DNA of 64,000 nt from NCBI GenBank assembly GCA_965248925.1, contig CBDFLE010000006.1:1568001-1632000 (forward strand), read 5' to 3'. Each line of letters begins with the position of its first letter. Position 1 is the stretch's first letter. The position numbers and the translations under genes were made by a program. This document shows, piece after piece, positions 20,686 to 36,110 of this stretch. The notes under the pieces are model-generated. The model worked only from the letters and a program-made list of their open reading frames with translations, searched no databases and had not been told where the DNA came from. The stretch is from Candidatus Multivoradales bacterium. GTDB taxonomy: Bacteria; Acidobacteriota; Thermoanaerobaculia; Multivoradales; J023.

Positions 20686-23328
<2,643 letters not shown>

Positions 23329-23487: not shown

Positions 23488-23808
23488 ATGAAGAGCCAAC
23501 CGATCCAGACCAAGCGACAGCTGACTCAGCGCCTGCACCACCTGGAAAGCCAGCTGCGGGAGCTGGGCGTAAGACGCCTGGCGCTCTTCGGTTCCTTTAT
23601 ACGCGATCAGCAGAACGCCAGCAGTGACGTGGACCTGCTGGTGGAATTCGAACCCTCAGCCAAGAGCTTCGACAATTTCATGGCCATCGCCGAGTTACTC
23701 GAAAACACCCTCCATCGGCGAGTCGAGCTAGTCACCAGGGAGGCCCTCAGTCCGTACCTTGGCCCCCGGATCCTCAGCGAGAGTCAAGATGTCCTACTCG
23801 CCGCGTGA
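23488..23808 (+). CDS. MNT nucleotidyltransferase antitoxin (MntA-like)
   Basis: LALFGSFIRD...SDVDLLVEF (GSx10DxD), RVELVT. Confidence 0.92.
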   Translation: MKSQPIQTKRQLTQRLHHLESQLRELGVRRLALFGSFIRDQQNASSDVDLLVEFEPSAKSFDNFMAIAELLENTLHRRVELVTREALSPYLGPRILSESQDVLLAA

Positions 23809-24127
23809 CTACCTGCGACACATGCTCGACGAAGCCGACTACCTCTGCGCACACTCCGCAAACCTCAGTCGCGCAGATTTCCTGACCGATGAGACACTGC
23901 GCCGGGCCTTCGTCCGTTGCCTCGAGATCATCGGCGAGGCGGCGAAGAAGATGCCCTCAGAGTTCGTCAAGACCCATCCAGACGTCGAGTGGCGCGCCAT
24001 GGCAGGAACGCGCGACCGATTGATCCACGGCTACTTCGGAGTTGACTATGAGCTGGTCTGGGACGTGGTGTTGAACAAGATTCCCAAACTCCGAGAGAGA
24101 ATCCGGGAGCTGCTGCAAGCCCGCTAG
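23789..24127 (+). CDS. HepT-like (DUF86) HEPN ribonuclease toxin
   Basis: LEIIGEAAK, RDRLIHGY (Rx4HxY), VDYELVW; overlaps the antitoxin. Confidence 0.92.
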   Translation: MSYSPRDYLRHMLDEADYLCAHSANLSRADFLTDETLRRAFVRCLEIIGEAAKKMPSEFVKTHPDVEWRAMAGTRDRLIHGYFGVDYELVWDVVLNKIPKLRERIRELLQAR

Positions 24128-24154
24128 CATCCGCCTCCCGGGAGGTGACTGGCT

Positions 24155-24196
24155 CTTCTTTGGCCGGCACTTCTTTGGCCGGCACTTCTTTGGCCG
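24155..24196. repeat. 15-bp tandem repeat, about 2.8 copies (CTTCTTTGGCCGGCA)
   Basis: Directly visible at the left junction of the clpB copy. Confidence 0.85.
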
Positions 24197-24633
24197 AGAA
24201 CGCCTCCGCCAACAGCTTGCTGCGCGAAGAGGTCACCGCCAACGAGATCGCCGACATCGTCTGCAAATGGACCGGCATTCCGGCCACCCGCCTGGTCGAA
24301 GGCGAGCGCGACAAGCTGCTGCACCTCGACGAATTGCAGCAGATCGTCGAGCTGCTGATCCAAGACCTGCGCGGCCGCCTCGCCGAGCGCCACATCGGCC
24401 TCGAGCTCAGCGTCGCGGCCCGCGAGCACATCGCCCGCGAAGCCTACGACCCGGTCTACGGCGCCCGGCCCCTCAAGCGCTTCCTCCAGCACCAGCTGGA
24501 GACCAAGATCGGCCGCGCCCTGATCGCCGGCGAGATCGGCGAAAGAGGCACCATCGAAGTCGGGCTGGCAGACGGCCAGCTGGCGGTCACCCTGCGCAGC
24601 GCTGAAGTCGAAGCAGAGGCAGTCACCGCTTGA
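24193..24633 (+). pseudogene. clpB: Diverged duplicate of the clpB 3' end with a 624-bp in-frame deletion
   Basis: 24193-24332 matches 22264-22403 and 24325-24633 matches 23020-23328, joined at CTCGACGA. Confidence 0.92.
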
Positions 24634-24697: not shown

Positions 24698-25864
24698 TTA
24701 CCCAGCGATGCTCCCCACCGGCGTCGCGACGACGCCGAAGACCAGCACATGGCCCGGTGGCGATTTTATGAAGATCTTGAATACGTCTTCTTGCTTGATG
24801 ATCGACAGACTCAATGTCGGCCGACGACTCTTGCCTGGCGCTGGCGGAATGGCAAAGAGGGGGGCGATGCCTTCTGCCGCCGCTTGCTGCAGGGCTTTCT
24901 GCTCCTGGTCGCTGAAATCGGCGTGGGACTCCAGCTCGATATCGACCCCGTCTACCAACACGACTCTGGTGACCAGCCGCTGCAGGCTGCCCGAGGGCCC
25001 GAAGGTCTGCTCCCAAGTGGGCTTGATGCCGGCCGGCCACACCGGTTCCCCGTGGGTCTGGAATGCCAGATCCAGGGCCGCTGAGCTGTACCAGGCCGGG
25101 TAGAGCTTGTCGCCCACCTGCTGACGGCTTTGCAGGGGCTGGGCAGCGACTCCGGTTTGATGGTCGAAGACCGCGCTGCCGGTGACCCGCTGGGCAGCCA
25201 GCTTGAGCAGCGCGGACTTGGTGTGGCGATGGGTCTGGGCATCGGAGATGCTGGCCAGACTGCCGGCCAGCCAGGCGGGAAAAACGGGCTTCGCGGTGCC
25301 GAGCCGTGGCGTGCTATCGATCGAGAAACGATAGCTCGGCGCCTGGCTCACCGCGGCGCGGGCGTCGGTGATCGACTTGCTGAAAGCGTAGCTGCCGTGG
25401 GCCTCGATGAACCGGGCTTGCGCTACCGGCACCGTGCTGAAGAGGATCCCACTGTAGGCACTGATCGCTCGCTCGGCCCGCGTCGGATCGGCAATCGTGC
25501 TCCTCGCCCAGCCGCTGAATAGCTCGAGCATGCCACCGGCTGGAATCTCGGGGCCGGACTCGAGGAAGCTCACCCAGCGCGGGTAGTCGTCGCCGACCGC
25601 TTGGCGCCACTCTGTGCCAAACTGCGGAATAATCAGATTGACCACCGCACCATAGCAGTCTGAGAAGCGGCTGAAGGTGGGCTCGTAGTAGTGGCCGCCG
25701 GTGTCGGCGGGGATCACGTCGTAGAAGCTCCACAACTCCCGCGAGCTCACCCCCGGCGGTGTCATCGAGCCAGCGATCAAGAAGCTCAGCGGCGACAGGC
25801 CGAAGGCCTTCACCACCGCGTCAAACCAGACTTGCTGCAGATCCTCGCCCGAACTCAGAGCCAT
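24698..25864 (-). CDS. Hypothetical protein, paralog B of 25973-27187
   Basis: ATG after GAGG; shares LWxxYDxIP, SRFSDxY, GGML.LF, PAW.SSAAL, W..TFG.SG.L.R with its neighbour. Confidence 0.85.
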   Translation of the reverse strand: MALSSGEDLQQVWFDAVVKAFGLSPLSFLIAGSMTPPGVSSRELWSFYDVIPADTGGHYYEPTFSRFSDCYGAVVNLIIPQFGTEWRQAVGDDYPRWVSFLESGPEIPAGGMLELFSGWARSTIADPTRAERAISAYSGILFSTVPVAQARFIEAHGSYAFSKSITDARAAVSQAPSYRFSIDSTPRLGTAKPVFPAWLAGSLASISDAQTHRHTKSALLKLAAQRVTGSAVFDHQTGVAAQPLQSRQQVGDKLYPAWYSSAALDLAFQTHGEPVWPAGIKPTWEQTFGPSGSLQRLVTRVVLVDGVDIELESHADFSDQEQKALQQAAAEGIAPLFAIPPAPGKSRRPTLSLSIIKQEDVFKIFIKSPPGHVLVFGVVATPVGSIAG

Positions 25865-25972
25865 CGCCAACCTCGCCAGATAGTCCGGATATTCTACGGA
25901 GAAAAGAGCGCGAGCCCGCAATCGCTGGCAGCGATTCCGGGCTCGCCTTCACATCGGCAAAGACACAGAGAT

Positions 25973-27187
25973 TCAGCTGAAGATGTCTTCGATCGGTAGT
26001 ACGTTGGCGCCGAGCACCAGCGGGCTACCCTTGGGGCTGGTGGCGGTCACCACCATCTTGCCGCTGTCGTCGAAGGTCACGTCGTTGGTGAAGCCACCGG
26101 AGACATCGGCGCGGAAGAAGGGCCACACACCGCCACTGGCCTGGCCGGTGATCTTCTGCCGCTCCTCAGTGCTGAAAGTAGCCGTCGACGACATGGTCAT
26201 GGTCATGCCGTCGCCGACCACCAGATTGGTGGCGAAGCGCTTGAGATTGCCGCTGGCACCGAAGGTCGAGTCCCAAGAGGCCGCGCCGTCGACCGGCCAC
26301 ACATCGTTGCCCTTGTTCTGGAAGGCGAAGTTGAGCGCCGCCGAGCTGAACCAGGCGGGGAAGTCCTTGCTACCGACGAAAGTCTTGGTCTGCAGCGGCG
26401 CGGCGGCGAAGGAGATCACGTTGTCAAACTTCACGTCGATGGTGACCTCGCTGCCGCCGAAGGTCGCATTGACCTGGTCGAAGCTGCTGCTGCCACCACC
26501 CCACAGGAAGCGAAAGGCGCCGCTGATCGAGCCCTTGGCCCAGGTGTGCTGAATGCTGCTGCTGGCGGTGCTGCTGTCGAAGGAATATCCCTGGCTCGGC
26601 CCCTGCTTGACCGCCGAGCGCAGGTCGTCGATGCTCTTGTCGTACGCGTAAACTCCGGCCGCACTGATGAAGCGACCCTGGGCCGTGGGCACCACTCCGT
26701 TGAGAATCTGGCTGTAAAGGGTGATTGCTTTCTGTGCCTTGGCGGGATCCTCGATGTTCAGCTGCGCCCAGTTGGTGAACAAGGTCAGCATGCCGCCGCT
26801 GGGTAGGGGATCGCCACTCTGACGAAAACCGTCGAGGTAAGTCACCCAATCGGGGTAGGTGTCGGCCAGAACCTGCTTCCAGGCCAGCGCACCGGAGGGC
26901 AGAATGGTGTTGATCACGCCGCTGTAGTTGTCCGAGAAACGGCTGATCTGCGAAGGCTCGGCCATCTGGGTGACCGACAGGGGCGGGATCGAATCGTAGA
27001 TCGCCCACAGCGCGGTCGACAGGTTGCCCAGCTGGACATTGCTCTGATAGATCTGGAACGTTTGATCTGAGAGATTCAGACCGGTCACCATGGTGTTGTA
27101 CCACTTCTCGGTGAGGGTCTTCATCGCATCTGCGCCGGAGCTTCCGGCGGTCTTGACTTGAGGTTTGGCGTAAGTTGTCGTGCTCAT
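25973..27187 (-). CDS. Hypothetical protein, paralog A; putative beta-pore-forming protein
   Basis: Strong GC3 codon bias, purine-rich RBS, no signal peptide, two Ser/Gly/aromatic segments; the function is inferred. Confidence 0.85.
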   Translation of the reverse strand: MSTTTYAKPQVKTAGSSGADAMKTLTEKWYNTMVTGLNLSDQTFQIYQSNVQLGNLSTALWAIYDSIPPLSVTQMAEPSQISRFSDNYSGVINTILPSGALAWKQVLADTYPDWVTYLDGFRQSGDPLPSGGMLTLFTNWAQLNIEDPAKAQKAITLYSQILNGVVPTAQGRFISAAGVYAYDKSIDDLRSAVKQGPSQGYSFDSSTASSSIQHTWAKGSISGAFRFLWGGGSSSFDQVNATFGGSEVTIDVKFDNVISFAAAPLQTKTFVGSKDFPAWFSSAALNFAFQNKGNDVWPVDGAASWDSTFGASGNLKRFATNLVVGDGMTMTMSSTATFSTEERQKITGQASGGVWPFFRADVSGGFTNDVTFDDSGKMVVTATSPKGSPLVLGANVLPIEDIFS

Positions 27188-27461: not shown

Positions 27462-28217
27462 TCAGCGAGCGATCAGCACGCGGAAGGAGAAATGCGCTAC
27501 AGGAGTAGCATCACCGGCTTCTACCCGGACCACGTAGTCGCCAGCAGAGAGCCATGACGAGTGCAGGCTCAGGACCAGGGAATCGAGATAGTTGGGTTCT
27601 AGACCCTGGCGTTGCCATGCCTGCTGCTCGCCGCGCCACAGGGTGACCTGGTAGCTGTCGTATTCGACCAGTCCAAGCTCCAGGGAAAGCACCAGCCACT
27701 CGGGAGCGGCAGACAAGCGCACGATGTGGCTGGGTTCAAGATCACCCAGGGCAGTGCCGCGCTCGGCGCTGAGTGAGAAGAGGGCAGTGTTGATCTGCGG
27801 CTCGTAGACCCGATCCGGGACCGCCGCGGCCAGCGGCTGGTGCTGGCGAAGGGCGGCCAGAGTCGAGTGCGCGTGGTCGAGCTGGCGACCGAGCTGGCGC
27901 TGGTTGCGAACCAGCAGACCTGCGGGCAGCAGGGCAACCAGGAGAAATGCCATGACCAGCAAACCAGCCCGCGGCGAGCGTAGCAGCCGGCCCAACCAGG
28001 CGAGCCGGCCCAAGTGCTGAGCAGTGGCAATGCGGGTCGCGTCTTCGGCCACCGCCCGCTTGAGTCCGCGCTGTAGCTTCTCGGCAACTTCGAGCTGACC
28101 GAGGCAATCCTGGCAATCCAGGTAGTGCTCTTCGAAGCGCCGAGCCTCCCCGGCCGGCAGCTGGTGCATCAGGTAACGATCGATCAGCTGCTGCTCTTCG
28201 ATGTAGCTATGTTCCAT
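27462..28217 (-). CDS. ZAS (zf-HC2) anti-sigma factor with TM and extracytoplasmic domain
   Basis: FEEHYLDCQDC (HxxxCxxC), one TM, C-terminal beta-rich domain (AGDYVVRVE). Confidence 0.88.
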   Translation of the reverse strand: MEHSYIEEQQLIDRYLMHQLPAGEARRFEEHYLDCQDCLGQLEVAEKLQRGLKRAVAEDATRIATAQHLGRLAWLGRLLRSPRAGLLVMAFLLVALLPAGLLVRNQRQLGRQLDHAHSTLAALRQHQPLAAAVPDRVYEPQINTALFSLSAERGTALGDLEPSHIVRLSAAPEWLVLSLELGLVEYDSYQVTLWRGEQQAWQRQGLEPNYLDSLVLSLHSSWLSAGDYVVRVEAGDATPVAHFSFRVLIAR

Positions 28218-28247
28218 GATTGCACCGCGCTTTGCAAAGACTACTCA

Positions 28248-28856
28248 TCAGCGTCTCTCCCTGACCAGGCGCCGCTGCTTGTCGGCCCGCTCGAGCAATG
28301 ACTTGTAGCGCTGCCGGGCACGAAACAAAACTCTGTTGAAGTGCAGGCTCGACAGCTCGAGGTCGGCACAGATCCGTTCCTTGGCCTCTTCGACAATGTA
28401 GAAGCGGTAGAGCAGCTGGCGATCACGGTCGGGCTCGAGTTGGTCGATCAGCCGCCGCACCAGGGCGGCTTCTTCATCCAGCAAGACTCGGCTGAGCTGG
28501 TTCGGCGCCGGATCGGCCGGTGGCTCGGCCTGCTCGAGGTCGTCGGTCTTGCGCCGGGTCGTCTTGCGGTAGTCAGCGATGAAGAGATTGCGCGCCGTGC
28601 GATTGAGAAACCCTGCCAGACGCTCGGGATCGGCTAAGCCGGCACCGCGCAGGCGTTCGAGCACGATGCGAAAGGCATCTTGATGGAGATCGTCGGCGAG
28701 GTCCGGATTACCGGTCATGCGGCGCAGCATGAATAGCAAGCCGCGGCTGTAGCGCGCCACCATATCGGTTTCCGCCGCCGGCTCGCCAGCAGCGATTCGA
28801 CGTACCAGAAAGGCGGCGGTCTGAGCTTCGCCCTGGGTGGCTGGATCCTCGCGCAT
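28248..28856 (-). CDS. ECF sigma-70 factor
   Basis: LVRRIAAGE, ADDLHQDAF, region 4 DRQLLYRFY...FNRVLFRARQR. Confidence 0.9.
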   Translation of the reverse strand: MREDPATQGEAQTAAFLVRRIAAGEPAAETDMVARYSRGLLFMLRRMTGNPDLADDLHQDAFRIVLERLRGAGLADPERLAGFLNRTARNLFIADYRKTTRRKTDDLEQAEPPADPAPNQLSRVLLDEEAALVRRLIDQLEPDRDRQLLYRFYIVEEAKERICADLELSSLHFNRVLFRARQRYKSLLERADKQRRLVRERR

Positions 28857-28980
28857 CGGTTGAGGAGAGATTCTAGCCGGAATACCGCGGTGCGACAAGG
28901 ATGGCGAAGGAGCGATCGGTCGATGGCCGCGTTCCCCTGACCGACCGCAGTATTCGGTGCTCAACATAGCCCGTTGCTCT

Positions 28981-29409
28981 TCATTCCTCGTTGGCGTCCC
29001 ACTCTCCAGGTTCTTCCAGGGGATGGACTCCGCCCTTCAGTCCCTGAGCGTGGAGACTGCCATCCGACTCCAGTGAGATAGCCCAATAGGTGTCGACCTG
29101 CTTGAAGTGAAACACCAGCTTGCCAGCCACCAGCTCGAGTTCCGCTTGGCGCCAATCCTCAGCGATACGATCTCTGGACCCCCTCGCCTTGATCTTGAAG
29201 TACTTGCGCTCCGGCTCGGTGACCTCGTAGATCAAGAACTGCTGAGTCATGGGCATACCGACCTTGGGCGATGCTCTGGTGACCTTCCACTTCTTGACGA
29301 ACCCTAGTCCTCCCAACATGCTCGCTCCATTCCTCACTAGCGCCCTCTCGCTCCAGCTCGGCTGAGAAATCGGGCGGGTCTCGGTGGATACGCTCAGTCC
29401 ATAAGTCAT
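28981..29409 (-). CDS. Hypothetical protein (142 aa)
   Basis: RBS GAGGA 7 nt before ATG, co-oriented between the CHAT and sigma genes, downstream of the repeated motif. Confidence 0.6.
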   Translation of the reverse strand: MTYGLSVSTETRPISQPSWSERALVRNGASMLGGLGFVKKWKVTRASPKVGMPMTQQFLIYEVTEPERKYFKIKARGSRDRIAEDWRQAELELVAGKLVFHFKQVDTYWAISLESDGSLHAQGLKGGVHPLEEPGEWDANEE

Positions 29410-29467
29410 CGCGATTTCCTCGCAGGTCCGACGAGCTCGTCATTGAACGCCGTCTTTCACTGTCTAC

Positions 29468-29494
29468 CTGCTGCCAATCGCGGTTCTATCTCAG
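29468..29494 (-). promoter_or_regulatory. Candidate ECF promoter CTGAGATAG-N11-GCAGCAG (upstream of the orphan gene)
   Basis: Same boxes and spacing as 27332-27358. Confidence 0.7.
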
Positions 29495-29505
29495 TATTTC
29501 TCCGC

Positions 29506-32500
29506 TCATTGCCATTCTCCTTGCAGCACAAAGGCACCCCAGTAGTAGGGATCGGCCCAGCGCCGCTGACTGAGAATCGAGATCTGGGCCGCCCGCAGCG
29601 CCGCCGCCGGGGTCAGACCGTCGACCGACATGGAGCGGTAGAAGTGGGCCATCAGCTCTGCCGTGGCCCGATCCTCCACCCGCCACAGACTTGCCACCAC
29701 CCGCGGCACGCCGGCATACATGAAGCCGCGGGTGAGGCCGACCAAACCCTCGCCCAGAATCTCCCGTCCAAGAGCGGTTTGGCAGCCGCTTAGAACCACC
29801 AAGTCGGCAGCGAGCTGCAGGTCGTAGATATCGCGCAAACGCAGGAAGCCCTCGCGCGCCTTGCCCTGCTGATCGAACAACGACAGCACCAGGCCCGACA
29901 GCTGCGGTGTCTCGGCGTGGATCAGCCCATGGGTGGCGAAATGGACGATTCTGTAGTGGCGCAGCTCACCGCCGAGCACCAGTTGGCGATTGGCGGCGAA
30001 GTCGAGCGCCATCATCACCTCAGCGGGCGCTCCCAAGGAGGCTATCGCCGTGGCCTCGCGACGGCTAGAAGGCAGGCGATCAAAGGACAGCTGGCGAAGT
30101 CCTGCCGCTCCGGCCGGCGAGCCCGACCGGACCCGAGCGGCGCCCAGTCTGGGATCGCGCGCGTCGAAAACCGGATCGGCCAGCACCGCCGCCCAGCGCG
30201 GAGCCGGCAGGCGGCTAGCCGTGGCGGCCCGCTGGATGCTCAAGGCCGAAGCCGAAGGCAAGTGGACGACTTCATGCTCCAGCACCAGGGGCATTGGCCG
30301 GCCGGCGGATTCGGTCGCACCGCGCCGTGCGGGCGCCGGCAAGGTAGCGAAGGGTAGGTAGTGCAGCACGCCGTCGGCAACCACCACCAAACGGTGTCCC
30401 AACAAACGCTCGGCAACCGGCCCCAGGAGCAGGTCACTGAGCTTTCTGGCAGCCTGCCGTTGCTCGCCACTGGCCCGCGGATCGAAGGTAGCGAGCTGCT
30501 GTACGACCGGGCGAACCACCTGCTCTAACTCCGCGCTGCCGGGCAGCTCGTGGACTTCGAAGCTGCTAGCGGTCAGCACCCATAGAAAGCTCCGCCGGGT
30601 ACCCAAGGTGTATTCCAGCAGCAGCGTATCGTCGGTCAGAAGATCTTGGGTGGCCGCCAGATCGAGGGGTCGCGGGTAGGCCAGCGCTTCGTAGCGCGGA
30701 CTCTGCCGGCGAATCTCCGCCTCGAGAGAGTCGAGATCGGCAACCACTTCGTAGAGCTCCAGCTGGGCCTCTTCTTCTGCCCGTCCCTGACTCAGCAAGG
30801 TCAGCCGGCGACTGGCCTTGGCGTCAAGCCTCCGCTGCAGCAGTTGACGGCGACGGCGCAGGTCGGGATCCAGGGGCCGGCCCAGATTGGTGCCGGCAGC
30901 CGACAGCATGTCGAGCAGACTGCGAGCGCGAGCTTGTTCAGCCACCTGCCGCGCCAGCTGGGCGAATTCGCCTCCCGGCTGAGGCGAGTGCAACTCCATC
31001 AACAGGTCGATTTCGAGCTCGTAAGCCTGCCTTTGCGAGGCGAGAAACGTGGCCCTTAGATCGGCCGCGCTCACCCTTGTGCGCAGGGATTCGACGCGAG
31101 CCAGAGCTTGCTCCACATCGCGCCTCGCTGAGTGCAACTGACCCAGTTGACGCTGGGCTTCGGCGAGCACGGTGAGACTCTCGATTTCACCATAGGGATC
31201 GCTCATCCCCAAGCGCAGGCTGAGTGCTCGGCGGAGGCTGAATTGGGCCTGCCGCGGCTCTCCCAAGGCTAGCTGCGCCGCGCCGCGAGAGTGCAGAGCA
31301 GTGGCTGCTTCGCGGCGGTCCTCGATGCTGGCCAATACCGCCAAGACTTGATCGAACAGACCGAGTGCAGCGCGCGGATCACCCGCCGCCACCAGACTCT
31401 GGCCCATGCGATTCAGCGTGCTCGCTTCGCCGCGCCGATCACCCACCGCCCGGCGCAAAGCCAATGACTGACTGAAGAGCTGCTGCGCGTGGCGATGCTC
31501 GGCCAAACTCGACCGTACCTGGCCGAGCACACTGAGGGTGATCGACTCACCCCGCCGATCGCCCACCTGGCGCCGCAAGGCCAAAGCCTGGCCCAAGAAG
31601 GTCAAGGCCCGGCGCGGCTCACCCAGGCTGAAGTAGGCAAAGCCGATGTTGTGCAGAGCCGACCCTTGACGACCCGTGTCGCCGAGCTCGCGGCGCACTG
31701 CGAGAGCCCCCAGATAGTGATCGAGAGCCGCTTGCATCTCACCGCCCCGGCGATAGACCACGGCGATGTTGTTGAGGCTCTGGGCTTCTCCCTTCCGGTC
31801 CCCGGTCGCTTGCCGCAAGGCCAATGCCCGTTCGTGGTGTTCGAGCGCCAGCTGCGGCTCTCCCAGGTTGTTGTAGGCGCTGCCCAGATTACTGAGCACC
31901 AGAGCCTCGTGCCGAAATTCCCCCTGCTCACGGAGCAGCTGAAGTACCTCCTGATAGCACTCCAAGGCGTCACGCAAGCGGCCTTCCGAGTGAGATCGCA
32001 AGCAGAGATTGTTGAGCGCAATCGCCGCGCCATAGCGGTTGCCCAGGGCCTGCTGCAGGGCCAGCGCCGCCTCGAGTGCGGTCTGCGCCTCGGTACTCTC
32101 GCCCAGCCGCCAATGAGCCAGGCCAAGATCACTCAGGGCGACCGCTTCGGCCTGCCGTTCACCCAGCTGCCGCAGCAAGGGCAGGGCGGCGCGGTAAGCG
32201 GTGATCGCCAACCGCGGCTGGTCCAAGGCGGCCCGCGACGCACCCAAACCAAAGAGCGCTCGCGCTTCGCCCTGCCGATCGGCCAAGGCGCGCCAGGAGC
32301 ACAGTGCTTGTTCGAGTTGCTCGGTCGCTCGCCGCCGATCTTCGACCGTTGCCAGGAAGTTCAGCTGCCCCGCTTCACTCACCGCCGCCAGGGCTAACAA
32401 CCGCTCCGCTCCAGCATCGGTAACCTCGACCAATTGGATGCGATAAGCACCCGGACCGACCGCTGCCGACGCCGACTTGACGGTGATCCGCCAACTGCCG

Positions 32501-32826
32501 GCAGCCCGCGGTGGAAAAAGAATCGACTCCCAGCCATGGCGGTAGGTCGGCGCATTGACCACCAGGGGAGCGTTGTCGGCCAGCTCTGCTTCGAGAATGA
32601 TATCGATACCGCGCTGCTCGAGTTGCACCAAGTATCGATGGCGAGGGTCGAGCTCGGCCTGGTAGCTTTGTACCTCCGCGGCCTCGAGGCGGCGTTCGAT
32701 CACCCGCTCACTCGCGCTGAGATAGCGGGGCACCGTAGGCGGCTCACCGGCGAGCAACAGCGGGCAGGCCAACAACACGGCAAACATCCACCACCGCAGG
32801 AGGCGGCTTGGCTCAAGCAAGGGCAT
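29506..32826 (-). CDS. Exported TPR-CHAT caspase-like protease
   Basis: Signal peptide, about ten TPR-like repeats, IVHFATHG (His), LVVLSGCQTALG (Cys), VVASLWRVED, PYYWGAF. Confidence 0.95.
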   Translation of the reverse strand: MPLLEPSRLLRWWMFAVLLACPLLLAGEPPTVPRYLSASERVIERRLEAAEVQSYQAELDPRHRYLVQLEQRGIDIILEAELADNAPLVVNAPTYRHGWESILFPPRAAGSWRITVKSASAAVGPGAYRIQLVEVTDAGAERLLALAAVSEAGQLNFLATVEDRRRATEQLEQALCSWRALADRQGEARALFGLGASRAALDQPRLAITAYRAALPLLRQLGERQAEAVALSDLGLAHWRLGESTEAQTALEAALALQQALGNRYGAAIALNNLCLRSHSEGRLRDALECYQEVLQLLREQGEFRHEALVLSNLGSAYNNLGEPQLALEHHERALALRQATGDRKGEAQSLNNIAVVYRRGGEMQAALDHYLGALAVRRELGDTGRQGSALHNIGFAYFSLGEPRRALTFLGQALALRRQVGDRRGESITLSVLGQVRSSLAEHRHAQQLFSQSLALRRAVGDRRGEASTLNRMGQSLVAAGDPRAALGLFDQVLAVLASIEDRREAATALHSRGAAQLALGEPRQAQFSLRRALSLRLGMSDPYGEIESLTVLAEAQRQLGQLHSARRDVEQALARVESLRTRVSAADLRATFLASQRQAYELEIDLLMELHSPQPGGEFAQLARQVAEQARARSLLDMLSAAGTNLGRPLDPDLRRRRQLLQRRLDAKASRRLTLLSQGRAEEEAQLELYEVVADLDSLEAEIRRQSPRYEALAYPRPLDLAATQDLLTDDTLLLEYTLGTRRSFLWVLTASSFEVHELPGSAELEQVVRPVVQQLATFDPRASGEQRQAARKLSDLLLGPVAERLLGHRLVVVADGVLHYLPFATLPAPARRGATESAGRPMPLVLEHEVVHLPSASALSIQRAATASRLPAPRWAAVLADPVFDARDPRLGAARVRSGSPAGAAGLRQLSFDRLPSSRREATAIASLGAPAEVMMALDFAANRQLVLGGELRHYRIVHFATHGLIHAETPQLSGLVLSLFDQQGKAREGFLRLRDIYDLQLAADLVVLSGCQTALGREILGEGLVGLTRGFMYAGVPRVVASLWRVEDRATAELMAHFYRSMSVDGLTPAAALRAAQISILSQRRWADPYYWGAFVLQGEWQ

Positions 32827-33679: not shown

Positions 33680-33701
33680 GCGATGCTCATTGAATGGTAC
33701 A

Positions 33702-33733
33702 CTTGTTGTGCGCTGAGCAATGCGCACAACAAG
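33702..33733. promoter_or_regulatory. Perfect 12-bp inverted repeat, probable antitoxin operator
   Basis: CTTGTTGTGCGC-N8-GCGCACAACAAG overlapping the AAGGAG RBS. Confidence 0.7.
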
Positions 33734-33742
33734 GAGCCCCAG

Positions 33743-34000
33743 ATGCCACGCATGAACGTCTCCCTACCGGAACCCTGTTTGAAAGCGCTGCGCGAGCAGG
33801 TACCCAACCGACAGGGTAGCCGCTTCGTTGCCGAGGCTGTGCAAGAGAAACTTGACCGGTTTCGGCAAAAGCTAGCGGTACGCGCAGCCGCGAATAGCTG
33901 GAGCAACGAGGGGCGTGGCGATGTGGGAACAGAGGTTCGCGCCTTGCGCCGAGGGTGGCACGAAGCCCGTCGTTCGAGAACCAACCCAGCCGGGGATTGA
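33743..34000 (+). CDS. RHH/CopG-type antitoxin
   Basis: MPRMNVSLPE...SRFVAEAVQEKL; RBS AAGGAG; precedes a PIN gene. Confidence 0.8.
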   Translation: MPRMNVSLPEPCLKALREQVPNRQGSRFVAEAVQEKLDRFRQKLAVRAAANSWSNEGRGDVGTEVRALRRGWHEARRSRTNPAGD

Positions 34001-34001
34001 A

Positions 34002-34360
34002 ATGCCGGTCGACGCTATTCTCGATACGGATGTGGTGATCTAGCACCTCCGTGGCCATCCATCCATCGTCGAGCAAGTCACAGAACTCGCCGGGCACGCT
34101 AACACTCGGAGTGTCGGCAATTACCCGCGCCGAAGTCATCCTCGGAATGCGAGATTCTGAGAGAGCATCCACCTTCGAACTGCTGGACTCGCTCCGCAAG
34201 TTGACGGTAGACGCTTCAATCGCCGACCGAGCGGGTGAGATCATCCGTGATTTCCGCCGCCGCGGTATCACTCTGCACCTACCCGATGCCTTGATTGGCG
34301 CCACCGCAATTCTCGCCTCTGCGCCCCTGCTCACCGGCAACGCCCGCCACTATCCAAGCC
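34002..34360 (+). pseudogene. vapC: VapC PIN toxin pseudogene
   Basis: MPVDAILDTDVVI*HLRG (TAG at 34041), frameshift near 34100 into LGVSAITRAEV...DALIGATA...LLTGNARHYP. Confidence 0.88.
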
Positions 34361-34674: not shown

Positions 34675-36110
34675 ATGCGTTCTGAACTCTTGAAAATTCT
34701 GACTCTCACCGGTTGCATTCTATCCTTGTCGTCGCCGACCCGCGCTGCTGACGACATCTTTATCGTGCCTCAGCCAACAGGGTCCTTGCCTGTCTCTTTC
34801 GAGATTCAAGATCCGGAGTTTTGAGCAACGACGGCCAAGGTGCCGAGGTCGTATCCTTCACCACCACCAGCCGCGGCACCCTGGAGCGAGGTGGAAGCGG
34901 ATTCGTCTACCACCCGGAGGCCGAGTTCTGGAGCAAGGGAACGGACTTCTTCAGTTACAGATTCGATCAGCTGCCGGAGGAATCGGCGATCGTTTTTCTT
35001 CTGGCCGATCCACTGTCGGAGCCGACGATGGTGATTGATCTGGAGCTGGAGCTGGAGCTACCCATCCGGCTCACCGCCCGCCAGGGCACCCTGGCCGCCC
35101 AGGGCAACGTCGACCGTCTCGGCTTGGGAACGGAGGCCGAAAGTTCCTTCGTCTCGGCTATGCTCCGCAAACCGGTCAAGCCTGCCGGCAACAAGGTCAC
35201 GACCGGTCTCAATCCCGGCCAAATGACTCTCATCAACGGTGAGGAGGTCACCTTCGCCAGCATCGGCCAACTAGATTTGGTGGTCGGCTTCGACGGCACT
35301 TCTTACTCGCTCAAAGCCCGGCGTAGCTCCACTGGCGAAACCCCCATTTCAACCCTCTTGCAGCAGAGTCCACAGTCGGTCGCTGCTCGCTGGTGGAGTT
35401 CGGGCGCAACAGCGGACCGCGATCGCGGACTCATCTTGCAGGTCGGTAACCGAGTCGCTGCCAGCCTGCCCGACGCCAAGCGCTTCGATGACCCTTCGCC
35501 GACCATCGAGCTGCGCTTCGGGGCACTGAGCCTAGGGCCAGGCGCTTCGGGGCTCCTCGCCTTGGACGGCATCGAGGCTTGGATCGAGCCGGCGAGTTCG
35601 CCACACCTGCTGCCAATATTCGCCGACGGCGTCGAGAGAGCTGGTCTCGACGCCTGGGCTGCCACCACTGGCAACCTCGCGGTCACCGGTCTAGCAGCGA
35701 TCAGCGGCAACCTGGGAATCGACGTTGCCGGCCCCTTCCCAGCCTACCTGGAAGCCCCTTCGGTGGGCGGTCTGCCCCGTTACCGTGCCCGTTTCAGCTT
35801 CGATCCGGCCCAGCTCAGTTGGACGGCTGGCGATGCAACCACCATTTTGGAGGGCATCGATGAGCACAGCTCAGAGACCCTCTTCATCGTCGAGCTACGT
35901 TGGTGGTCAGCCGACGACACCAGCAGCGATGACGGCGGCTTGAGAGTCTGGCTCGACGATGGCTCCGGCGGCGGCAATCAACTGATCGGCGAGGTTTCGA
36001 ATCTGGCCAACAGCTCGCAAGACCTCGGCGAAGTGCGCTTTGGCGCCATCGATCCCCAAGGCACGGCTGACGGTCCACTGTACCTCGACGACCTCGAGTC
36101 TTGGCACTAG
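34675..36110 (+). pseudogene. Frameshifted exported protein with an Ig/cadherin-like domain and beta-rich C-terminal domains
   Basis: Signal peptide and AADD in the first frame; adding one base near 34815 gives DPGVLSND...G.FVYHP...GTDFFSY; IFADGVE motif later. Confidence 0.7.

What the first reader, a model, noticed from the sequence alone, without database searches (positions are those of the whole stretch)
24698..27187. Tandem paralogs that diverge mainly at two candidate membrane-insertion hairpins
Seen: the proteins align along their length (YDSIP/YDVIP, SRFSDNY/SRFSDCY, GGMLTLF/GGMLELF, PAWFSSAAL/PAWYSSAAL, WDSTFGASGNLKR/WEQTFGPSGSLQR) but diverge sharply at two blocks. Paralog A has SSSIQHTWAKGSISGAFRFLWGGGSSSFDQVNATF and ITGQASGGVWPFFRADVSGGFTNDVTF, Ser/Gly-rich with aromatic tips. 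Paralog B has PRLGTAKPVFPAWLAGSLASISDAQTHRHTK and EGIAPLFAIPPAPGKSRRP. Known: MACPF/CDC proteins and gasdermins insert two beta-hairpins per subunit. Inference: A forms a beta-barrel pore, and B is a co-assembling non-inserting partner (inhibitor, immunity or nucleator). Neither has a signal peptide. The fold is a hypothesis from composition only.
Basis: partly seen in the sequence, partly recalled or inferred. Interest (0 to 1): 0.8.

Follow-up and report, generated by a model that had tools for sequence, protein, structure and literature searches.

The report
Gasdermin-like pore protein with decoy paralog
Two neighbouring genes encode related proteins of an undescribed bacterial family whose predicted shape resembles gasdermin, the cell-killing pore protein; the first copy keeps the two membrane-piercing segments and the second has lost them, suggesting a pore-former paired with a built-in regulator.

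Summary
A (25973-27187, minus, 404 aa) and B (24698-25864, minus, 388 aa) are tandem paralogs: 37% identity, E 8e-82.

Neither protein matches Pfam, NCBIfam, PADLOC, PHROGs or any PDB sequence. The family has 335 representative clusters.

The fold is a gasdermin pore-forming domain with a helical bundle of about 110 residues inserted. By order of secondary structure, the two blocks sit where gasdermins form their membrane "fingers".

A-type blocks are Ser/Gly/Thr-rich, alternate in hydrophobicity and are conserved family-wide. B-type blocks are Ala/Arg/Pro-rich.

Of 33 non-redundant loci, 19 carry a downstream paralog. These arose at least four times, and each time the downstream copy degraded or deleted both blocks.

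No protease partner, C-terminal inhibitory peptide or N-terminal cysteine is present, so this is not a canonical bacterial gasdermin.

Pore formation and A-B binding are inferred, not shown. Verdict: a probable new, protease-independent variant of gasdermin-fold pore-formers with a non-inserting partner.

The parts
25973..27187 (-). Gene A, 404 aa: upstream paralog, candidate pore-forming subunit with a gasdermin-like fold
   Evidence: ORF. AF2 model pLDDT 87.4, pTM 0.82. Gasdermins rank first.
24698..25864 (-). Gene B, 388 aa (the ORF is open up to the TTG at 25921): downstream paralog with both finger blocks replaced
   Evidence: ORF. Database copy P0172 has 388 aa. AF2 model pLDDT 89.0, pTM 0.86. 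Gasdermins rank first.
26603..26938 (-). A residues 84-195: helical bundle inserted into the gasdermin-like core
   Evidence: Helices 84-94, 100-124, 132-144, 148-163, 165-176 and 186-194. This stretch matches only unrelated helical bundles. It is missing from the short partners of other loci.
26447..26575 (-). A block 1, residues 205-247: Ser/Gly/Thr-rich alternating segment, candidate first membrane hairpin
   Evidence: 12% identity to B. Mostly coil with pLDDT 68-75. The family-wide alternating pattern and W216 are conserved.
26081..26185 (-). A block 2, residues 335-369: helix plus a Gly/Ser-rich segment with a conserved W-P-F motif, candidate second hairpin
   Evidence: 26% identity to B. 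Lies between strand 317-334 and strand 367-372. Conserved pattern.
25187..25315 (-). B block 1, residues 184-226: Ala/Arg/Pro-rich segment modelled as two helices
   Evidence: Helices 197-203 and 209-224 in the B model. The same character holds in the B-type clade.
24821..24925 (-). B block 2, residues 314-348: Ala/Pro-rich segment
   Evidence: pLDDT below 50 at residues 339-346. T-P-L-F replaces W-P-F-F in the B-type clade.
27462..28217 (-). Context only: anti-sigma factor with a zf-HC2 domain, 274 nt upstream of A on the same strand
   Evidence: Pfam PF13490. A link to A/B rests on adjacency alone and is absent in relative L005.
28248..28967 (-). Context only: ECF-type sigma factor
   Evidence: Pfam Sigma70_r2.
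29506..32826 (-). Context only: TPR-CHAT caspase-like protease with a hydrophobic, signal-like N-terminus
   Evidence: Pfam CHAT E 1.2e-70 plus TPR repeats. N-terminus read. Not conserved next to homologues.

Best explanation
A and B are a two-gene module of an undescribed bacterial protein family. The family has the fold of the gasdermin pore-forming domain, with a helical bundle of about 110 residues inserted between the N-terminal strands and the first finger region. A is the executioner. Its two conserved, Ser/Gly/Thr-rich segments of alternating hydrophobicity (43 and about 35-45 residues) would refold into two beta-hairpins and, after oligomerisation, form a membrane beta-barrel, as gasdermin fingers do. 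B is a tandem duplicate that keeps the globular core and the helical bundle, but both finger segments are replaced by Ala/Arg/Pro-rich sequence. B can therefore probably dock onto A through the conserved core but cannot insert. I take it to be a cognate modulator, most likely an inhibitor or cap (antidote, timer or immunity). Control is not by the bacterial-gasdermin route of protease cleavage of a C-terminal peptide. It is probably transcriptional (an ECF sigma/anti-sigma pair here, two-component and other regulators elsewhere), possibly with release of the helical bundle. Shown: paralogy, predicted fold, position and composition of the blocks, and recurrence of the pair architecture. Inferred: pore formation, A-B contact, the direction of B's effect, and the trigger.
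For: Fold:
- Foldseek on A ranks bacterial gasdermins 1, 2, 3, 6, 7 and 9 (7n51, E 5.6e-3, prob 0.75).
- Foldseek on B ranks 7n52_C first.
- ESM features: the nearest named clusters are Thiol_cytolysin and MACPF at 0.86, a lead only.

Topology:
- The element order is helix, strands, [insert], strand 199-204, block 1, long strand 248-261, helices, long strand 317-334, helix 340-352 with block 2, then strands 367-398.
- This matches the gasdermin order alpha1, beta1-2, beta3, finger 1, beta5, alpha3, beta7, alpha4/finger 2, beta8-11. The gasdermin order is recalled; PMC10153256 passages give fingers of 17-18 residues, fingertip loops of 8-11 residues, and fingers formed by refolding of helices.

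Blocks:
- 137 of 180 collected family sequences keep W216 and [W/F]-P at 355-356. Hydrophobic residues alternate with Ser/Thr/Gly in both blocks.

Partner pattern:
One of them carries adjacent locus tags, and loci L026 and L027 show the pair directly.
- 19 of 33 non-redundant loci with at least 900 nt of downstream sequence have a downstream paralog.
- A quick ML tree of 61 rows needs at least 4 origins of the downstream copies. Each downstream clade is sister to its own upstream clade and has a longer stem.
- The downstream copy has lower Ser+Gly+Thr in both blocks in all 6 complete full-length pairs examined plus the window pair. In the short partners both blocks are deleted.
Against: - No sequence or profile similarity to any gasdermin or other solved chain, and none to Pfam, NCBIfam, PADLOC or PHROGs.
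- The block-to-finger mapping rests on the order of secondary-structure elements, not on a residue-level superposition, which the tools do not return.
- The nearly invariant W-P-F motif in block 2 is unusual for a plain transmembrane strand.
- 13 of 33 loci have no partner, so B is not needed by all members.
- In many loci the partner carries a signal-like N-terminus while the upstream copy does not. That puts the two in different compartments and is awkward for a simple intracellular cap model.
- No experiment on any member was found.
Confidence: 0.5

Rival explanations
1. Obligate binary pore, as in the fungal RCD-1-1/RCD-1-2 pair. A and B heterodimerise, and the heterodimer is the active, cleavage-independent pore unit. 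B activates or nucleates rather than inhibits, and transcription of the operon alone decides cell fate.
Against: 13 of 33 loci have A alone. B and the other downstream copies lose exactly the segments needed for insertion. The short partners carry a signal-like N-terminus that the upstream copy lacks.
Confidence: 0.15
2. A is a toxin aimed at other cells (bacteria or eukaryotes) and is released without a signal peptide. The downstream paralog is an immunity decoy that stops incoming or nascent A oligomers. It is periplasmic in Bacteroidota and Photobacterium and cytoplasmic here.
For: The layout of an effector without a signal peptide followed directly by a small protein with one is the usual effector-immunity arrangement (general knowledge). 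18 of 18 short partners have a hydrophobic N-terminal segment. The pyroptolysin preprint (10.64898/2026.10.05.756811, abstract and passages) shows that a gasdermin fold can serve as an outward-acting toxin. Downstream copies evolve faster.
Against: No secretion-system genes were seen among 108 neighbours scanned in 22 loci. B in this window has no signal peptide. 13 of 33 loci lack a partner. No targeting domain is present.
Confidence: 0.15
3. The gasdermin resemblance is only a shared arrangement of a twisted sheet and helices. The family has another role, such as lipid or envelope binding, or a stress protein under ECF or two-component control. The blocks would then be flexible surface loops that diverge quickly.
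For: All fold scores are sub-threshold. There is no sequence link to any pore-former. Some solo homologues sit among housekeeping-looking genes (gene identities recalled, not tested).
Against: The same small structural family tops five searches by two programs on two independently built models. It covers 170-194 of about 230-250 target residues. The blocks are not fast-evolving loops in A-type proteins: they are among the best conserved motifs across phyla.
Confidence: 0.2

Closest known systems
Bacterial gasdermins (bGSDM; PDB 7N50, 7N51, 7N52, 8SL0, 9A84)
   Same: Best fold match for both A and B over nearly the whole gasdermin chain. Cytoplasmic and without a signal peptide. Two segments at the finger positions are long enough for hairpins of 17-18 residues per strand.
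   Different: No sequence similarity. A helical bundle of about 110 residues is inserted. There is no N-terminal cysteine (A has none) and no C-terminal inhibitory peptide (the model ends 6 residues after the last strand). No protease gene is conserved beside it. It is often paired with a paralog.
Fungal RCD-1-1 / RCD-1-2 gasdermin-like pair (PDB 8JYZ)
   Different: RCD-1 partners are alleles that meet only after cell fusion. Here the two are co-encoded in tandem, and one has lost its finger sequences.
Pyroptolysins (gasdermin-CDC chimeras; bioRxiv 10.64898/2026.10.05.756811)
   Same: Bacterial, gasdermin-like N-domain, no protease partner, length 325-400 aa, mostly environmental Gram-negative hosts.
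   Different: Pyroptolysins carry a C-terminal CDC-like Ig domain and are mostly solitary genes. A and B have no residues left for such a domain, have an internal helical bundle instead, and often come in pairs.
MACPF/CDC pore-formers (pleurotolysin B, perforin, TgPLP1, astrotactin-2)
   Same: Second tier of fold matches with 150-183 aligned residues. They also contribute two hairpins per subunit.
Phage holin/antiholin pairs (an analogy of mechanism only, recalled)
   Same: A membrane-lesion protein is co-produced with a near-copy that cannot insert properly and restrains it.
   Different: Unrelated helical proteins. Lambda makes its pair from one gene with two starts, whereas here two diverged genes are involved.

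Membership tests
Bacterial gasdermin (bGSDM) | Fold of the gasdermin N-terminal pore-forming domain | tested here: met
Bacterial gasdermin (bGSDM) | Sequence or profile similarity to known gasdermins | tested here: not met
   No Pfam, NCBIfam or PADLOC family at E up to 1. No PDB chain with a single sequence or with a 40-sequence profile at E up to 10, apart from one unrelated E 2 hit.
Bacterial gasdermin (bGSDM) | N-terminal cysteine that is palmitoylated and required for killing (PMC10153256 passages) | tested here: not met
   A has no cysteine at all. B has one, and it is not at the N-terminus.
Bacterial gasdermin (bGSDM) | Short C-terminal inhibitory peptide (17-67 aa; PMC13475620 passages) | tested here: not met
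   The last strand ends at residue 398 of 404 in A and 382 of 388 in B.
Bacterial gasdermin (bGSDM) | Dedicated protease gene next to it | tested here: not met
   Among 108 neighbour proteins of 22 loci, only one S8 subtilase (L023) and one C39-like peptidase (L014) appear. The CHAT protease 2.3 kb upstream in this window has a signal-like N-terminus and is absent beside the 73%-identical homologue in L005.
Pyroptolysin | C-terminal CDC-like Ig beta-sandwich fused to the gasdermin-like domain | tested here: not met
   Only three short strands and a 5-residue helix follow block 2. No pyroptolysin structure was in the PDB copy, so no direct comparison could be made.
MACPF/CDC | MACPF or CDC domain by profile; bent sheet with two helical clusters by fold | tested here: inconclusive
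Binary gasdermin-like system (RCD-1 type) | Two homologous gasdermin-domain proteins that bind each other to act | not testable with these tools
   The pair is present. Binding would need an experiment.

The most novel reading that the evidence does not exclude
This is a third, protease-independent branch of bacterial gasdermin-fold pore-formers, spread across at least five phyla. Its activity is governed by decoy protomers: tandem duplicates that evolved independently at least four times by stripping the two membrane fingers (and, in one lineage, by gaining export signals) to cap or time the pore. That would be a general evolutionary route to self-immunity for beta-barrel pore-formers.
Probability: 0.3. 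Interest if true: 0.85.

Novelty: new variant of a known kind. Interest (0 to 1): 0.72.

Why it matters
Gasdermins are the executioners of pyroptosis. In bacteria, only the protease-activated bGSDMs and, very recently, the toxin-like pyroptolysins are described. A widespread family with the same fold but a different control logic would widen the picture of how this ancient pore scaffold is regulated. Here the control logic is an internal helical bundle, no cleavage, and a recurrent finger-less paralog. It would also offer a natural example of dominant-negative protomers restraining a beta-barrel pore, and it gives a direct, simple test: A, B and A+B in E. coli and on liposomes. In addition it would annotate some 335 sequence clusters that currently have no name.

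Tried and rejected
- A+B complex prediction gave no verdict (score 0.21, mark 0.32). It is neither support nor evidence against binding.
- Search for RNA runs: no RNA holder listed. The reads tool was not used.
- Promoter hunt. The sigma-70-type scan found 1 site against 1.1 expected. A generic ECF-like pattern (recalled consensus) gave 2 matches in the window against 3.5 expected, none near A. An alignment of the regions upstream of A from the window, L026, L027 and L005 showed no conserved motif. The ECF link therefore stays an adjacency argument.
- CHAT as activator. I considered it because bGSDMs use caspase-like proteases. I set it aside because the CHAT protein looks exported, A/B have no inhibitory peptide, and the module is missing next to the close homologue in L005.
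- Fused longer forms: none found among proteins of 708-2020 aa (weak evidence).
- N- or C-terminal extensions of 14 longer database homologues, 3 over-long locus ORFs and one B-type protein (18 proteins scanned) have no Pfam family.
- Earlier notes of this scan: nothing on this sequence or place. One word hit on another genome was unrelated.
- Literature: three full-text searches found no description of this family. Supplements were closed, so tables of gasdermin homologues in the bGSDM and pyroptolysin papers could not be checked for these proteins.
- The first attempt to scan genome contigs with the 26-row alignment failed for lack of a conserved stretch. A closer 18-row alignment worked.
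Full report
**What is there.**
Two ORFs lie head to tail on the minus strand. A is 25973..27187 (404 aa). B is 24698..25921 (407 aa from the first TTG). The database copy of B has 388 aa and starts at the ATG at 25864, and B-type homologues align from that point. This leaves a 108-nt gap after A.

BLASTP gives 37% identity over 406 columns, E 8e-82.

A global alignment gives these identities:
- helical middle (A 84-195): 50%
- A 248-334: 46%
- block 1 (A 205-247): 12% (5/43)
- block 2 (A 335-369): 26% (9/35)
- the two ends: 31-33%

Block 1 is the clear minimum. Block 2 is low mainly in its second half. Neither protein has a hydrophobic N-terminus, and A has no cysteine.

**No known family by sequence.**
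Pfam, NCBIfam, PADLOC and PHROGs give nothing at E up to 1 or 0.1. The PDB sequence search gives only one unrelated E 2 hit for A, and nothing for a 40-sequence profile.

The family is nevertheless real and sizeable:
- 25 proteins by word search, none with a Pfam domain.
- 335 representative clusters at E 1e-3 or better, and 103 at 1e-30 or better, among 1.84 billion representatives.

It is patchy. The window's genome has only these two copies. In a sample of 401 genomes of the phylum, 2 had a match, one of them G000 itself and the other a weak partial match.

Homologues occur in 22 genome contigs from Myxococcota, Bacteroidota (many), Vibrionaceae, Alphaproteobacteria and Actinomycetota, and in 41 metagenome contigs. 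The closest named source is a Thermoanaerobaculia MAG.

**Fold.**
AlphaFold2 with family alignments gave confident models: A has pLDDT 87.4 and pTM 0.82; B has pLDDT 89.0 and pTM 0.86.

The five fold searches gave:

| Method and model | Top result |
|---|---|
| Foldseek vs PDB, A | Bacterial gasdermins at ranks 1, 2, 3, 6, 7, 9 (best 7n51, E 5.6e-3, prob 0.75); pleurotolysin B at ranks 4, 5, 8 |
| Foldseek vs PDB, B | 7n52_C first (E 1.4e-2); 7n50 and 7n52_D at ranks 3-4 |

In one search, the six gasdermin rows are the only rows with 150 or more aligned residues. Every other row aligns 50-134 residues, mostly the helical insert. In one search, the only other long alignments are to the MACPF protein astrotactin-2.

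The language-model look-up names CDC and MACPF clusters as the nearest annotated ones at 0.86, a lead only.

**Anatomy.**
The element order in A is:
- helix 17-36, short strands 44-47 and about 66-74
- six helices 84-194
- strand 199-204
- block 1 (coil 205-236, helix 237-245)
- long strand 248-261, short strands
- helices 282-290 and 305-309
- long strand 317-334
- helix 340-352 and block 2
- strands 367-372, 378-384 and 390-398, then a 5-residue helix

B has the same order.

Read against the gasdermin topology, block 1 lies between beta3 and beta5 and block 2 around alpha4 between beta7 and beta8. These are the two finger regions. The topology is recalled; passages of PMC10153256 give the thumb/palm/wrist/fingers terms.

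That paper states three things. Bacterial gasdermin fingers are 17-18 residues per strand. Fingertip loops are 8-11 residues. The fingers arise by refolding of helices and a strand. Block 1 (43 residues) and the stretch 327-372 fit those lengths.

The helices 84-194 are an insertion with no counterpart in the matched gasdermin chains. They match only assorted helical bundles. This mapping is by order of elements, because the tools give no residue-level superposition.

**The blocks across the family.**
Of 180 collected family sequences, 137 keep W216 and [W/F]-P at 355-356. In these A-type proteins both blocks are rich in Ser, Thr and Gly. Hydrophobic residues alternate at positions 221/223/225/227, 239/243, 248/250/252/254, 328/330/332/336/338 and 354-372 even positions. 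So the blocks are conserved motifs, not drifting loops.

The B-type clade (12 sequences) replaces block 1 with an Ala/Arg/Lys/Glu-rich segment, modelled as helices in B. It replaces W-P-F-F with T-P-L-F followed by Ala/Pro-rich sequence. B-type proteins are about 50% identical to one another, so they are under selection.

**The pair is a recurrent architecture.**
A-type and B-type hits have matching contig lengths in four cases: 14892, 5466, 4140 and 6056 nt. The last carries adjacent locus tags. Loci L026 and L027 show the pair directly.

Over all 63 fetched loci, grouped into 48 clusters at 95% identity, 33 have at least 900 nt downstream:
- 19 carry a paralog directly downstream on the same strand
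- 13 have none
- 1 has a partial paralog upstream

No hidden partner was found in the solo loci with a profile of the short partners.

Three partner types occur:
- Full-length partners without a signal peptide, as in this window and in L041, L044, L048, L051 and L054.
- An insert-less partner without a signal peptide (L006).
- Short partners of 276-353 aa in Bacteroidota and Photobacterium. They lack the helical insert and both blocks. They begin with a hydrophobic, signal-like segment in 18 of 18 cases by a crude hydrophobicity index, against 0 of 9 full-length partners.

A quick maximum-likelihood tree of 61 rows (the careful search did not finish) places each group of downstream copies as sister to its own upstream copies. 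Starred branches force at least 4 origins. The downstream stems are longer: 1.12, 0.76, 0.44 and 1.17 for the downstream clades, against 0.22 and 0.09 for the window and short-partner upstream clades and 0.60 for the L044 group. Long branches and unequal composition make this provisional.

In the window pair and the 6 complete full-length pairs examined, the downstream copy has less Ser+Gly+Thr in both blocks: 0.17-0.38 against 0.47-0.61 in block 1, and 0.11-0.26 against 0.37-0.54 in block 2.

**Context.**
Upstream of A on the same strand lie:
- a zf-HC2 anti-sigma factor (27462-28217)
- an ECF-type sigma factor (28248-28967)
- a small ORF with no family
- a 1106-aa TPR-CHAT protein (29506-32826)

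The CHAT protein starts with a hydrophobic signal-like segment. That fits a periplasmic role with the anti-sigma factor rather than cleavage of cytoplasmic A or B.

The module is not conserved. The 73%-identical homologue in L005 is preceded by an oxidoreductase-like gene and a short-chain dehydrogenase, and L026 is followed by a dehydrogenase.

Among 108 neighbours in 22 loci there is no recurrent protease. Regulators are frequent:
- histidine kinase/response regulator pairs or parts of them in L006, L010, L015, L017 and L025
- a Ser/Thr kinase with a sigma-54 activator in L011
- PAS proteins in L021 and L022
- an AraC regulator in L018

I could not find a shared promoter.

**Mechanism proposed.**
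A is a gasdermin-fold pore-former whose two conserved amphipathic blocks become the membrane hairpins. B keeps the core and the bundle but cannot insert, and it modulates A, most likely by capping or poisoning oligomers.

The missing C-terminal peptide, cysteine and protease mean that activation differs from bGSDMs. The helical bundle is the obvious candidate for an internal restraint, and transcription is the obvious switch.

The rivals are an RCD-1-like obligate heteromer, an outward toxin with a decoy immunity protein, or a non-pore function with only a look-alike fold. The signal-bearing short partners favour the immunity reading in those lineages. The solo genes argue against any obligate partner.

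**Comparison and novelty.**
It works like a gasdermin but fails four of five bGSDM membership features (sequence, cysteine, C-terminal peptide, protease). It also lacks the Ig domain that defines pyroptolysins (preprint 10.64898/2026.10.05.756811, abstract and passages).

Three full-text searches found no description of this family. Supplementary tables were closed and might list such proteins.

I rate it a new variant of a known kind. All functional claims rest on predicted structures and comparative genomics.

Noticed in passing
window 23488-24633: Directly downstream of B lies a remnant of clpB. Positions 24192-24332 and 24285-24584 are 91% and 90% identical to 22263-22403 and 22980-23279 of the intact clpB (20686-23328), so the remnant is an internally deleted copy. 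A nucleotidyltransferase/HepT toxin-antitoxin pair (23488-24127) sits between the intact gene and the remnant, suggesting an insertion or rearrangement at the 3' end of clpB.
   Followed up: partly
window 27462-32826: A four-gene module on the minus strand: a TPR-CHAT protein with a signal-like N-terminus, a 142-aa ORF with no family, an ECF sigma factor and a zf-HC2 anti-sigma factor. It looks like a self-contained envelope-signalling unit. Its relation to A/B rests on adjacency only.
   Followed up: partly
P0014, P0016, P0028, P0029, P0031; L004:1264-2790: Some homologues of about 500 aa carry an extra N-terminal region of about 110-130 residues with no Pfam family. Others (P0026, P0038, P0041, P0140) are about 100 residues longer at the C-terminus.
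   Followed up: partly
P0180, P0129 (B-type proteins): Two B-type partners have lost most of the helical insert (about 50 residues against 108). Partner reduction is therefore also under way within the window's own clade.
   Followed up: no
L055-L059, L063 (metagenome contigs): A solo subgroup (about 32% identical to A) sits in the same neighbourhood in six contigs, between genes whose N-termini look like PanB upstream and a membrane protein, a lipoprotein and a Der-type GTPase downstream. The identities are recalled from sequence appearance and were not scanned.
   Followed up: no
window 33690-34340 and 34821-36107: Two further ORFs (217 and 429 aa) near the locus have no Pfam family.
   Followed up: no
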